Below, in pieces: positions 37,633 through 46,861 of a DNA stretch of 64,000 nt. The notes beneath the pieces were generated by a model. The model did no database searches, was not told where the DNA came from, and saw only the letters and a program-made list of their open reading frames with translations. The position numbers were made by a program, and so were the translations under genes. Source of the stretch: Phyllobates terribilis (Eukaryota); assembly GCF_046119375.1 (NCBI RefSeq), contig NW_027362763.1:248372001-248436000 (forward strand), written 5' to 3'. The stretch's first letter is position 1. Each line of letters begins with the position of its first letter.

Positions 37633-37660
37633 ATGGCGCCTCCCATGCCGCTTCTGGCAG
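37633..37660 (+). CDS. EIF2A: EIF2A exon 1 coding part: MAPPMPLLA
   Basis: 28 nt, GT donor; frame joins exon 2; resembles human MAPSTPLLT. Confidence 0.9.
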
Positions 37661-41699: not shown

Positions 41700-42225
41700 G
41701 TAAAACACTTAAAGCCCATTGGTTATATAAAAGACCAACTGCACAAGCTCATAATAGAGCAGTAGTCCACACTATCTAATAGCATGATACACAGGAAACC
41801 GATGATAAATACAATAATCATAAAAGATATGGTATGTCTCTGCACTAATATGGTGATTGCCAGGGCTGAACAGATGCAATAACACATAACCCCAATATGA
41901 TAAATGTAAAAGATCAAGGGTAATGAAAAACAAGCATGGCTTGTAGCTTATTTAACTGTATCATTTTTGTATTGCCCATCTCATTGTTTTTCATCACTCA
42001 CTCTTTGATCTTTTACCTTTATCATATTGGAGTTCAGGCTTATGTGTTATTGTATCTGCTCAGCCCTTGCAATCTTCATATTATGAATGAGACATATCTT
42101 TCATGATTATTGTATTTATAATCGTTATCCTGTGTATTATGCTATTAGATAGTGTGTACTACTGCTCAATTCTGAGCTTGTCCAGTTAAATCTTTTATAT
42201 AACCAATGGGCTTTATAAGTGTTTT
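41700..42225. repeat. Imperfect inverted repeat with arms of about 250 bp
   Basis: aaaacacttaaagcccattggttatataaaaga... versus ...tcttttatataaccaatgggctttataagtgtttt. Confidence 0.85.
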
Positions 42226-42228
42226 TAA

Positions 42229-42668
42229 AGGAAACCTGTCACCAGAAATAACGCTATTAACCTGCAGATATGCGGTTAATCTGCAGGTTAACCGCATTAT
42301 TATGCTGCCCGTCGCCTGCACGCAGAGGGGAGAAAATGGACTTTATTCTCCCCAACAGCATTCGGTTTCAGTCATGAGGGCGGCGCCTGTGCAGTCACCA
42401 CTCTTAATGACAACCGACCCCAATACAGAGGGAGTGTCAGTCAGTGCTGGGGGCGCGGTTACCGTGGCTGCCACTTTGTATACTCAGAGCGGCGACTGAA
42501 CCCGTGCCGCCTCCATGACTGAAACCAAATGCTTCCAGGGAGAATAAAGTTCATTTTCTCCCCTCTGCATTTGGCTGCATGCAGTTGCCGGGCAGCATAA
42601 TAACGCTGTTACCCTGCAGATTCCATATCTGCAGGTTAACAGCGTTATTTCTGGTGACAGGTTCCCTT
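42229..42668. mobile_element. T2/Kolobok-like palindromic MITE
   Basis: TTAA-aggaaacctgtcaccagaaataacg ... cgttatttctggtgacaggttccct-TTAA. Confidence 0.85.
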
Positions 42669-42672
42669 TTAA

Positions 42673-45600
42673 AGGGAATCTGTCAGCAGGTTTTTGCTAT
42701 GTAATCTGAAGACAGCATGAGGTAGGGGATAAAACACAGATTTCTGCCATGCCTCTCTTATCAAGCTCCAGGTTTTGTTTACTTACAATGATTGTTTTAG
42801 TACCAGGAGATTATCATTGCTGTGACTAGCTGGTATGTGAGCCCGGGTCCCACACGCCCCCTCCTGTGATATGCACCTCACGGTCTATAGACATTGTATT
42901 GTACCTCCATGTTCCTTGCAATGATCTGCAGCTAATCACTGGTATATATTTCTCATTCATCTACTTTGTTTAACTCATGATACTTTAAGGTCATCACACT
43001 TACTTTAACAGTTTATGATCCATGTAGAGTTGCCAGTCTGTTTTGTTTTTTTTTCTGCAGTTTTATGGTCTCCTGTTGTCTTAAGCTAGTTGATTGATTG
43101 CTAACGAGTTAAATCTGTGTATATCTAAGCAGATACGTCCCTATATATTGAGACATAGTCAAGGGGCAGCATTTATGCGCGGGCATTTATGCATAATTTA
43201 TCAAAGTGTCTCGGCAGTTAGATATGGCAGTTGGACAGGGCAGGAGACATGTACAGCTGTCATGCTCTCTTCACAATGTTATACCACACAGATCCATTCA
43301 TTCCCATCATACAACACAGGAAACGCTCTCACAAATCACTCAACCATCTGCTCACTCTCTGTATCTTCCTTCTCTTAGTCGCAGGTGATATTTCTCCTAA
43401 TCCAGGACCCTCCAGTAATAATAACACTAACTCTTTCCCTGTTACATTCAGAAACCCTGCTAATCTCATTAATATTCCCTGCATATCTTCTGTGTCATTC
43501 AACTGTGCCCTTTGGAATGCGCGCTCAGCATGTAATAAACTCTCTTACATCCATGACTTTTTCCTCTCTAATTCCCTCAACCTTCTGGCTCTCACTGAAA
43601 CCTGGATCCAGCAGTCGGACACCACCGCCGCGGCAGCTCTCTCCTATGGTGGCCTACATTTCTCTCATACCCCGCGACCTGACAACAGATCAGGGGGAGG
43701 TGTTGGTCTGCTTTTTTCAACAAAATGTACTTTTCAGGTTATCCCCCCAGTACCCTTCCTTATCTTCCCTTCTTTTGAGGCCCACACAGTCAGACTCTAC
43801 CGGCCCTTCTCCCTGCGAGTGGCGGTTGTCTATCGCCCTCCAGGTCCCTCCCGTCAGTTCCTGGATCACTTTGCTACCTGGCTTCCAAATTTTCTATCCT
43901 GCGACATGCCCACGATAATCATGGGAGATTTTAACATCCCAATTGGCGATCCTCTTTCCCCATCTGCCGCTCACCTTTTATCGCTAACCTCCTCCTTCGG
44001 CCTTTCACAGCTTGCTAATTCTCCTACACATGAAGATGGGAACACATTGGACCTGATCTTCTCCCGGCTTTGCTCAGTACATGACTTTACTAACTCTCCC
44101 CTTCCACTGTCTAACCATAATCTTCTTTCATTCTCTGTCAAGAACTGTGACTCTACTCAAGACCCCCCCACTTTCCACACTTATAGAAATATACATGCTA
44201 TTAACACCCAGAAATTTATGAAAAAGTTGCAATCATCATTGGCCCCAATCTCCTCCCTCTCATGTCCCGACTATGTATTGAAGCATTATAACGAAATAAT
44301 GCTATGCGCCCTGGATGAAGCCGCACCTCCTACACAAAGAACAATTCAGCATAGACGGTGACAACCCTGGCGCACACCTCAAACACGTCTTCTCCAGCGG
44401 TGCTCCAGGTGCGCTGAAAGGCTGTGGAGAAAATCTAATCTGCCCGAAGATTTCCTCCATTATAAATTTATACTGAAAACATATAACTCTGCGCTTCACC
44501 TCTCAAAACAAACCTACTTTAACAACCTCATAATCTCATTTTCCAATAATCCTAAACGACTCTTTGACACGTTTCATTCTCTCCTCAATCAAACAGCACA
44601 GGCCCCGATCACCAACCTCAGCGCTGACGATCTGGCCAATTATTTCAAAGAAAAAATTGACCATATCCGACAGGAAATTTTCTCCCAATCCCCAAACGTT
44701 ATGCATGCTCTCCCCCGCCACATTGTATCTTGTTGACTTTCTGATTTTGAACCAGTCACGGAAGATGAAGTGATCAGTCTCTTTGCATCGTCTCGCCCTA
44801 CCACCTGCACCAGTGACCCTATTCCCTCACATCTCCTTCAGTCCCTTGCTCCCGCTGTCACCACTCACCTAACTAAAATTTTCAACCTCTCCCTCTCATC
44901 TGGTATCTTTCCCTCTTCTTTTAAACACGCCAGCATACATCCATTACTTAAAAAACCATCCCTTGACCAGAACTGCACGGCCAACTACAGACCTGTTTCC
45001 AATCTTCCCTTTATCTCTAAACTCCTGGAACGCCTGGTCCATTCCCGTCTAATCCGCTATCTCTCAGACAACTCTCTTCTTGACCCTTTACAATCTGGTT
45101 TCCACTCTTTACATTCTACTGAAACTGCCCTCACTAAAGTCTCTAATGATCTACTAACAGCTAAATCTAATGGTCACTACTCCCTGCTGATTCTCCTGGA
45201 TCTCTCTGCAGCATTCGACACTGTGGATCACCAGCTCCTCCTCACTATGCTCCGCACTATTGGCCTCAAGGACACTGTTCTCTCCTGGTTCTCCTCCTAT
45301 CTCTCTGACCGCTCCTTCTCTGTGTCTTTTGCCAGCTCCTCCTCCTCTCTCCTTCCCCTTACTGTCGGGGTTCCTCAAGGATCAGTCCTAGGCTGCCTTC
45401 TTTTCTCCTTATACACCGCTCCCATTGGACAAACAATCAGCAGATTCGGTTTTCAGTACCATCTCTATGCTTATGACACCTAATTATACACCTCTGCTCC
45501 GAACATCACCCCTGCATTACTACAAAAGACCAGTGATTGTCTTTCTGCTGTGTCTAACATTATGTCCTCCCTCTACCTAAAACTGAATCTGTCAAAAACT

Positions 45601-46861
45601 GAACTACTCCTCTTTCCTCCCTCCACTAACCTACCTGTGCCCGATATTGCCATTTCCGTTTGTGGCTCAACCATTACTCCCCAGCAACAAGCCCTCTGTC
45701 TTGGGGTCATTTTTGACTCAGATCTTTCCTTCACTCCTCACATCAAATCACTCGCTCGTTCATGTCATCTACACCTCAAAAACATCTAAAAAATCAGGAC
45801 TTTTCTCACCTTTGACTCGGCAAAAACTCTTACTGTAGCTCTTATTCATTCCCGTCTGGACTACTGCAACTCTCTACTTATCGGGCTCCCTCTTACTAAA
45901 CTCTCCCCTCTCCAATCCGTCCTTAACGCAGCAGCCAGGATCATATTCCTCGCCAACCGCTACACCGATGCCTCTTCCCTGTGCCAGTCATTGCATTGGT
46001 TACTCATCCAATATAGAGTTCAATTTAAACTTATCACGCTTACCCACAAAGCGCTCCATGCTTCAGTACCCCCCTACATCTCCCCCCTTGTCTCAGTCTA
46101 CCACCCTACACGTGCCCTCCATTCTGCCAGTGACTTAAAACTAAAATCCTCCATAATCCGAACTTCCCACTCCCGTCTCCAAGATTTCTCCCGTTCTGCG
46201 CCAATTCTTTGGAATGCACTACCCAGAACAGTTTGTTTAATTCCCAATACCCACAGTTTCAAGGGGACCCTAAAAACCCATTTCTTTAGACTGACGTATC
46301 GCCTCCACACACTATCTGACCATCCCAGTTGCCCGTCCCAGTTTTCCCCCATATTAAAATCTTCAACTTCAGGTTCTTACCAACCATGCACATAATAGCC
46401 TCGGTCAGGACTGCACACATACTGGCCGGCGACCAGTCCATGTATTATTTATCCTATTTAGTATATCAAGGCTGCATTATACAATATATGTACATTCTAC
46501 CTTTTGTGTCTCCCCCATTTCCTCATAGACTGTAAGCTTGCGAGCAAGGCCCTCACTCCTTTTGATATGAGATATGTTTATTCTGTATTGTTTGTATAAG
46601 TCCCCCCTAAAATTTGTAAAGTGCTGCGGAATATGTTGGCGCTATAAAAATAAAAAAGAATAATATTATATTGTATATGCAGAGCCTGGTGTGGGCGGGG
46701 TTAGCTTCCTCAGCTCTGCTTCATTCTAAATCTAAAAGCACTGATTGTGTGAGAACTGCAGTACCCACTAATCTAAGTGATACATTGTTGGATTCAGCTT
46801 CTCTCTGCCTACATCAGGCTTCTCTCAGATGAAGTAGCAAAAACCTGCTGACAGATTCCCT
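42673..46861. mobile_element. T2/Kolobok-like MITE split by the L2 insertion
   Basis: agggaatctgtcagcaggtttttgct ... agcaaaaacctgctgacagattccct; shares a TTAA with the preceding MITE. Confidence 0.8.
42900..46669 (+). mobile_element. L2-clade LINE: 2A-like peptide, APE and RT in one frame (43231-46395) with four stops
   Basis: WNARS, TETW, GDFN, SNHN; [35 protein letters not shown]. Stops at 44359, 44734, 45481 and 45787; candidate 7-bp TSD attgtat. Confidence 0.93.

What the first reader, a model, noticed from the sequence alone, without database searches (positions are those of the whole stretch)
43249..43410. 2A-like (StopGo) peptide directly before the endonuclease of an L2 LINE in EIF2A intron 1
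Seen: the long L2 frame reads ...HLLTLCIFLLLVAGDISPNPG|P (GDISPNPGP at 43384-43410), shortly before the APE domain starts (FNCALWNARS). There is an in-frame stop at 43219 and the first in-frame ATG is at 43249, so only about 53 residues precede the putative skip site. Established: D(V/I)ExNPG|P peptides cause ribosomal skipping, and 2A-like motifs are known in APE-type non-LTR elements including the L2 clade. Inference: skipping would release APE-RT from a short hydrophobic, signal-peptide-like leader, possibly giving two differently targeted products. The usual Glu is replaced by Ser, so activity is uncertain. This copy has four stops but no frameshift, so the active ancestor could be rebuilt.
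Basis: partly seen in the sequence, partly recalled or inferred. Interest (0 to 1): 0.7.

Follow-up and report, generated by a model that had tools for sequence, protein, structure and literature searches.

The report
Frog LINE leader with skip motif
This is a dead copy of a very common frog jumping gene whose protein starts with a greasy leader and a virus-like ribosome-skipping motif already catalogued in Xenopus; the motif is kept unchanged across related families and likely throttles and frees the copying enzyme, but skipping by this peptide is untested.

Summary
The motif is real (GDISPNPG|P, 43384-43410) and precedes the APE domain of a dead L2 LINE in EIF2A intron 1. It is not new: Xenopus CR1-L2-1, L2-3 and L2-4_XT end in the same nine residues. 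Two first-reader details fail. The '53-residue leader' and 'no frameshift' come from a private 179-bp deletion; intact copies have one 1112-aa ORF, no ORF1 and a 121-aa leader. Ser is the selected state, not decay: 6,296 Ser-form against 0 Glu-form matches genome-wide, and pN 0, pS 0.89 across four families. Published reporter data class Leu-rich Ser-form peptides as skipping, fall-off or protein-reducing (8 of 8), while two other Ser forms were inactive in lysate. The real leader begins with a separate signal-like segment, which also goes with the motif in distant APE elements (16 of 22 against 3 of 33). Likely role: ER docking plus leaky StopGo as a throttle. I did not find the signal-like leader in print, but this scan noted it before on other DNA (e1-10146537, e1-7882422, e1-9808914).

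The parts
42895..46654 (+). L2 LINE copy, 5'-truncated inside the upstream repeat unit, dead; about 94.5-95.4% identical to intact copies
   Evidence: blastn to other copies
43139..43149 (+). TATA-like box at the end of the 5' repeat unit; full-length copies begin about 30 nt after the equivalent box of an upstream unit
   Evidence: promoter role inferred
43213..43249 (+). DNA-level conserved block with two GGCAGTT words and the family start codon (ATG 43224-43226); in intact copies followed by a splice-donor-like CAG|GTAA
   Evidence: pS only 0.14 across families
43249..43250 (+). junction of a private 179-bp deletion that removed the donor-like site and the N-terminal hydrophobic segment and shifted the frame
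43249..43338 (+). surviving C-terminal half of the leader (end of the ISPSLL-SPM motif, short helix, His/basic stretch)
43339..43383 (+). Leu-rich predicted helix upstream of the core motif (5 Leu in positions -19 to -10)
   Evidence: helix 99-112 of the model
43384..43410 (+). 2A-like core GDISPNPG|P; putative skip between 43407 and 43408
43510..44067 (+). APE endonuclease domain (Pfam PF03372)
44950..45711 (+). reverse transcriptase domain (PF00078), broken by a stop at 45481; the catalytic motif reads YAYDT; end projected from an intact copy
46620..46680 (+). conserved 3' end followed by a decayed (TAT)n-type tail
37633..37660 (+). host EIF2A coding exon 1 (context)
   Evidence: gene identity
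47125..47194 (+). host EIF2A exon 2 (context)

Best explanation
The window holds a dead copy of a single-ORF frog L2 LINE whose intact relatives encode a 121-residue leader ending in a strictly conserved GDISPNPG|P, which likely acts as a leaky ribosome stall-and-skip site that both limits and releases the endonuclease-reverse transcriptase. Shown: one ORF, no ORF1, the leader with an N-terminal hydrophobic segment and a Leu-rich stretch before the motif, protein-level selection on the motif, Ser fixed at the Glu position. Inferred: (1) the N-terminal hydrophobic segment binds SRP and docks the translating ribosome and its RNA at the ER; (2) the Leu helix and core stall the ribosome; (3) some ribosomes release the leader and go on to make signal-free, Pro-started APE-RT on the cytosolic side, next to its own RNA; (4) the rest fall off or make a membrane-bound fusion that cannot reach the nucleus, so enzyme output is throttled, as an ORF1 would otherwise do.
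For: pN 0.000 with pS 0.886 for the nine codons over 6 pairs of 4 families, against APE pN 0.183 and flanks 0.30-0.52. 6,296 Ser-form, 0 Glu-form, 0 reversed-control matches. Motif intact in 115 of 120 copies fetched by protein search (the query held the motif). All four families have copies with open frames of 1093-1113 aa, so recently active lineages carry it. The motif lies in a low-confidence loop about 30 residues before the APE fold, after a helix that ends at -10, the geometry reported for active peptides (PMC13405545 section 13). In that paper's Table, 21 peptides end in an intact GD[IV]SxNPGP: all 8 with 4 or more Leu at -19..-10 are classed skipping (5), fall-off (1) or non-skipping with reduced protein (2); all 13 with 3 or fewer are non-skipping (my hand count; the window peptide has 5). 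Two of the 8 match frog-type leaders P0063 (skipping) and P0047 (reduced only). N-terminal hydrophobic segment in 4 of 4 families (KD17 2.1-2.7; nucleotide-shuffle p 0.002-0.031) with in-frame length changes, and in other frogs (P0004, P0008). In distant APE proteins: 40 of 58 with the motif against 13 of 61 without; 16 of 22 against 3 of 33 among hits found by the APE start alone.
Against: Glu is nearly invariant in viral StopGo and Ser is not among the tolerated variants (PMC12846837). The two E-to-S retrotransposon peptides tested in lysate were inactive (Odon 2013). The Xenopus peptides are listed with activity N/A. Reporter classes are model-assigned (86% on training samples), from 20-mers without the leader, and my cut of 4 Leu was chosen after seeing the rows (at the paper's cut of 3 it is 8 of 9). 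No signal-peptide predictor was available; the strand is T/C-rich and in families B and C another frame is as hydrophobic. The N-terminal half of the leader has pN/pS 0.73 on near-saturated sites. A signal sequence upstream can inhibit 2A (PMC2978324 abstract). Four distant APE proteins have a hydrophobic N-terminus and no motif. Protein counts are not phylogenetically independent.
Confidence: 0.55

Rival explanations
1. No peptide bond is skipped. The Leu helix plus GDxSxNPGP only stalls or destabilises the nascent chain, or the two hydrophobic segments form a membrane hairpin that leaves APE-RT tethered on the cytosolic side until a protease frees it.
For: E-to-S peptides inactive in lysate; 2 of 8 Leu-rich Ser-form peptides are 'non-skipping, reduced', one of them frog-type; the second hydrophobic stretch is marginally membrane-compatible in families A-C (recalled scale).
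Against: NPGP, the residues that matter at the peptidyl-transferase centre, are invariant with saturated third positions; distant elements keep the core behind a non-membrane-like stretch; 5 of 8 Leu-rich peptides fall in a skipping class.
Confidence: 0.2
2. The motif is a weak StopGo element working alone, as in L1Tc; the N-terminal hydrophobicity is a by-product of a T/C-rich strand and has no targeting role, or translation starts at a downstream Met.
For: Alternative frames equally hydrophobic in families B and C; pN/pS 0.73 in the N-terminal half; the first ten codons are conserved as DNA, not protein; family D has GTG where the others have ATG.
Against: Hydrophobic segment in 4 of 4 families and in distant elements with the motif but rarely without; distance from the donor-like site to the motif is a multiple of 3 in all four families; family D's first Met opens the hydrophobic segment; the downstream Met is absent in family D.
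Confidence: 0.13
3. Efficient, virus-like StopGo yields two stable products in equal amounts, the leader being a small secreted or membrane protein with its own job.
For: A second conserved motif (ISPSLL-S-M) and helix in the leader across frogs.
Against: Glu absent from all 6,296 matches; efficient viral sites need Glu or His; no family or Atlas match for the leader above 0.81.
Confidence: 0.09
4. The motif is a decayed relic or a structural extension of the endonuclease.
For: Odon 2013 offers decay as the simplest reading of non-Glu motifs.
Against: Zero amino-acid change at saturated synonymous divergence; the motif lies outside the predicted APE fold behind a linker of variable length.
Confidence: 0.03

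Closest known systems
Xenopus tropicalis 2A-bearing L2 elements CR1-L2-1_XT, L2-2_XT, L2-3_XT, L2-4_XT (Odon et al. 2013, PMC3708506; listed in Rao et al. 2025, PMC12338488, supplementary file 2)
   Same: Same core in three (L2-2_XT has Val for Ile), same Ser, same KS-x-x-H-L...LLL run upstream; RT visibly closest to L2-3_XT and L2-4_XT among the records shown (by eye); single ORF.
   Different: Another frog lineage, with at least four recently active families; leader defined here as 86-121 aa with a separate N-terminal hydrophobic segment, which Odon 2013 does not mention (0 hits for signal, hydrophobic, membrane).
Class A viral StopGo/2A (FMDV F2A, P2A, T2A) and L1Tc/Ingi 2A
   Same: GD[VI]xxNPG|P core after a Leu-rich helix; in L1Tc the same place before APE.
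   Different: Ser for the near-invariant Glu; more Leu, a trait tied to reduced protein rather than clean skipping.
Sea-urchin NLR '2A-like signal sequences' (Roulston et al. 2016, PMC4981915)
   Same: Proposed split between ER-targeted uncut and cytosolic skipped product.
   Different: There the 26-aa 2A is itself the N-terminal signal in host immune genes; here a distinct hydrophobic segment lies 60-90 residues upstream, in a retrotransposon.
ZfL2-1 esterase ORF1p (Schneider et al. 2013, PMC3905857, abstract only)
   Same: An L2 upstream product with a suggested membrane-targeting role.
   Different: A separate ORF with coiled coil and SGNH esterase; no likeness in sequence was tested or is expected.

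Membership tests
StopGo/2A class A | core (D/G/C/N)(V/I)ExNPGP | tested here: not met
   DISPNPGP has Ser for Glu; Ser is not a listed functional variant in PMC12846837
StopGo/2A class A | Leu-rich helix upstream ending near -10 | tested here: met
   5 Leu at -19..-10; predicted helix 99-112
StopGo/2A class A | core conserved as protein, not as codons | tested here: met
   pN 0, pS 0.89
StopGo/2A class A | Gly-Pro bond skipped during translation | not testable with these tools
   only published data on look-alike peptides, which are mixed
2A-bearing single-ORF L2 elements (Odon 2013) | APE plus RT in one ORF | tested here: met
   Pfam PF03372 and PF00078
2A-bearing single-ORF L2 elements (Odon 2013) | no ORF1 | tested here: met
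   13 of 15 fetched copies (picked for long open frames) have one 1112-aa ORF; upstream lie only repeat units
2A-bearing single-ORF L2 elements (Odon 2013) | 2A-like motif in the N-terminal region before APE (about 40-80 aa from the start) | tested here: inconclusive
   position before APE met; distance is 86-121 aa from the first Met in the four families, longer than the published range, which may rest on downstream Met calls
2A-bearing single-ORF L2 elements (Odon 2013) | RT tree places it in the L2 clade | not tested
   no tree built; by-eye likeness to L2-3_XT and L2-4_XT in the paper's supplement
2A-like signal sequences (Roulston 2016) | the 2A itself is the N-terminal signal | tested here: not met
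   the 2A helix lies about 100 residues from the start, behind a separate hydrophobic segment
2A-like signal sequences (Roulston 2016) | dual localisation shown in cells | not testable with these tools
   needs microsome or cell assays

The most novel reading that the evidence does not exclude
Single-ORF APE retrotransposons of many animals have replaced ORF1 with a signal-sequence plus non-Glu 2A leader: it docks the element's RNA and ribosome at the ER, and only chains broken at NPG|P give active enzyme beside the nuclear envelope, while translocon engagement tunes the skip. The non-Glu motif would then be a context-dependent StopGo that peptide-only reporters miss.
Probability: 0.3. Interest if true: 0.7.

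Novelty: new member of a known kind. Interest (0 to 1): 0.38.

Why it matters
The motif itself has been in print for frog L2 elements since 2013, so the finding as written is ordinary. What this work adds is that Ser at the Glu position is under strict selection in several recently active families, which argues against the 'decayed 2A' reading, and that the motif travels with an N-terminal signal-like segment. If that pair is functional it would answer how ORF1-less LINEs control and place their enzyme. Young, intact, abundant natural copies make the question directly testable.

Tried and rejected
Splicing from the conserved donor-like site: the predicted junction has 0 genomic matches; none of 21 copies lacking G at the donor is a splice product (19 go on with TAA or similar as point variants or other families, by eye); no joint starts at the donor in contigs of 6 runs, none on record as RNA; no RNA holder listed, so expression is open. 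The deletion as a non-autonomous subfamily: rejected, 1 match. Reverse-strand ORFs in the 84-bp repeat are repeat artefacts. ESM Atlas: best score 0.81, a lead at most. 3' stem-loop folds no better than shuffles (z 0.0). Literature: main-text search for GDISPNPGP 0 papers; 'signal peptide + non-LTR retrotransposon + ORF2 + 2A-like' 0; 'retrotransposon + StopGo + signal peptide + endonuclease + endoplasmic reticulum' 0; word look-ups in Odon 2013, Luke 2013, Snell 2026 and PMC13343379 show no signal-like LINE leader. Theses, Repbase entries and subscription journals were not searchable. Three other NPGP words in the window (15012, 55670, 62185) are not 2A-like. No RT tree and no signal-peptide predictor were run.

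Full report
Observation. The frame starting at 43222 reads ...HLLTLCIFLLLVAGDISPNPGP with the core at 43384-43410, then APE and RT domains broken by four stops. Such a core is expected 1.4e-4 times by chance in this window. The host gene is EIF2A and the element lies in sense orientation between the first two coding exons as read by eye. The genome is 10.6 Gb; the closest named protein relatives come from poison frogs and other frogs.

What the copy has lost. A search with the N-terminal 124 residues scored 150 of 22,642 candidates, all 96-100% identical. Of the 29 other copies fetched, 24 have an upstream ATG 195-207 nt before the codon at 43249, in frame in 19; the window has 25 nt. So 179 bp are missing, the junction is unique in the genome, and the family start codon at 43224 now gives a 54-aa out-of-frame peptide. 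The '53-residue leader' and 'no frameshift' are properties of this deletion. Of 15 copies fetched whole (chosen for long open frames), 13 carry one 1112-aa ORF, no ORF1, upstream repeat units and a (TAT)n tail. The natural leader is 121 aa: basic N-terminus, a hydrophobic segment at about 29-47, a polar linker, an ISPSLL-SPM motif and short helix, a His/basic stretch, then the Leu-rich stretch and the core.

Selection on the motif. Degenerate patterns give 6,296 matches for the Ser form, 0 for the Glu form and 0 for the reversed control. The first 30 matches fall into at least five families by eye; four of them (A, the window's; B, C, D) were searched and all have copies with open frames of 1093-1113 aa. 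One natural copy of each was compared over 6 pairs: the nine core codons have pN 0.000 and pS 0.886; APE 0.183 and 0.666; the 21 residues upstream 0.301; the linker after 0.354; the N-terminal half of the leader 0.515 and 0.702 (uncorrected proportions near saturation). The motif is thus held as protein more tightly than the endonuclease average. An AlphaFold model from 38 sequences puts it in a low-confidence loop (119-134 under pLDDT 50) after a helix at 99-112 and before the APE fold at 152, so it is not part of the enzyme fold.

Is it active? Untested. Against: Glu is nearly invariant among 2,465 viral octapeptides and stacks on the rRNA (PMC12846837, sections 6 and 9 read); two E-to-S retrotransposon peptides were inactive in lysate (PMC3708506, parts 1-5 of 6 read). 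For: in the table of PMC13405545 (abstract, sections 6, 12, 13, 14, passages and supplement rows seen), 31 rows hold GDIS or GDVS; I dropped 10 whose core is out of register or altered; of the 21 left, all 8 with 4 or more Leu at -19..-10 are classed skipping (5), fall-off (1) or reduced without skipping (2), and all 13 with fewer are non-skipping (hand count, cut chosen afterwards; 8 of 9 at the paper's cut of 3). The window peptide has 5 Leu, families B-D 6-7. Two of the 8 match frog-type leaders that I retrieved: P0063 (skipping class) and P0047 (reduced only). These classes come from a model with 86% accuracy on its training samples. A leaky stall, skip or fall-off is therefore more likely than either clean viral skipping or no effect.

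The signal-like segment. All four families have a 17-residue window of mean hydropathy 2.1-2.7 before the ISPS motif, above anything in their next 500 residues (1.3-1.4) and above shuffles (p 0.002-0.031), though another frame scores as high in B and C. Relatives from other frogs start Met-hydrophobic in the same way. Of 185 proteins retrieved, 99 carry the core, with S 48, E 12, H 11, N 9, Q 8, others 11 at the Glu position (biased by a Ser query and by frog hits). Among those starting with Met and with the core at 55-125, 40 of 58 have a hydrophobic first 35 residues, against 13 of 61 without the core; 9 of those 13 have a degenerate core and 4 have none. Limited to hits matched through the APE start, 16 of 22 against 3 of 33. 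These proteins are not independent and some starts are gene-model guesses. No signal-peptide predictor was on hand, so 'signal-like' rests on hydropathy and position.

Mechanism. A working signal in front of a nuclear enzyme would send it the wrong way unless the chain is broken or stopped before APE (inference). The most economical model is SRP docking at the ER, stall at the motif, release of the leader by part of the ribosomes with cytosolic APE-RT made next to its own RNA, and loss of the rest by fall-off or as membrane-bound fusion. This fits the published idea that 2A stands in for ORF1 as a brake (PMC3894237, part 1 of 3 and passages) and the suggested membrane role of another L2's ORF1p (PMC3905857, abstract). 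A signal can also suppress 2A (PMC2978324, abstract), which would make the outcome context-dependent. Rivals: stall or hairpin anchor without skipping (0.2), motif alone with incidental hydrophobicity (0.13), clean two-product skipping (0.09), relic (0.03).

Known or new. Xenopus CR1-L2-1_XT, L2-3_XT and L2-4_XT end in the same GDISPNPGP and L2-2_XT in the Val form, all with activity N/A (PMC12338488, passages and supplement rows); the RT is by eye closest to L2-3_XT and L2-4_XT. Dual targeting by a 2A-like signal is published for sea-urchin NLRs (PMC4981915, abstract and passages). I found no paper on a separate signal-like segment in LINE leaders, within a library that lacks theses, Repbase and most subscription journals; the figure with the Odon peptides could not be seen. 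This scan noted the same layout before on other DNA; I had formed the leader reading from my own calls and tested it here. Verdict: a new member of a known kind; interest 0.38, carried by the selected Ser form and the signal-like leader.

Noticed in passing
window 42895-43249; L032 oriented 727-2331 (G000:C4:430009500-430016500): The 5' region is built of tandem units, each ending in a TATA-like box; full-length copies start about 30 nt after the equivalent of that box, and L032 has three units. It looks like a monomer promoter that loses one unit per round, as recalled for mouse L1. Units hold an 84- or 93-bp tandem repeat of 2-11 copies.
   Followed up: partly
window 43213-43249 and families B, C, D: A block conserved as DNA (pS 0.14) with repeated GGCAGTT words, which resemble MYB/A-MYB sites (recalled), and a donor-like CAG|GTAA about 130-150 nt after the TATA box in all four families. 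No spliced copy or joint found. It may serve transcription rather than splicing.
   Followed up: partly
window 43249-43250: The private deletion begins exactly at the donor-like site, so this sense-oriented intronic copy has lost it; chance or selection for EIF2A splicing not tested.
   Followed up: no
L128 and other family D loci: Family D has GTG where A, B and C have the start ATG; its first in-frame Met opens the hydrophobic segment, giving an 86-aa leader.
   Followed up: partly
window 42223-42673: Long inverted repeats (about 190 bp, 81% alike) just upstream of the L2, MITE-like.
   Followed up: no
window 15012 and 62185: Two similar short repeats that translate to WDLNPGP; not 2A-like, possibly a SINE family.
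   Followed up: no
P0010: A frog-type L2 leader, motif and APE in a record labelled Protopolystoma xenopodis, a parasite of Xenopus: host contamination or transfer.
   Followed up: no
P0011-P0021: Several frog gene models join unrelated sequence to the L2 just before the His-Lys-Ser run of the 2A region; probably model artefacts or a cryptic acceptor.
   Followed up: no
P0109, P0137, P0168, P0170: APE proteins with a hydrophobic N-terminus but no NPGP; three have an Arg-rich stretch where the leader lies.
   Followed up: no
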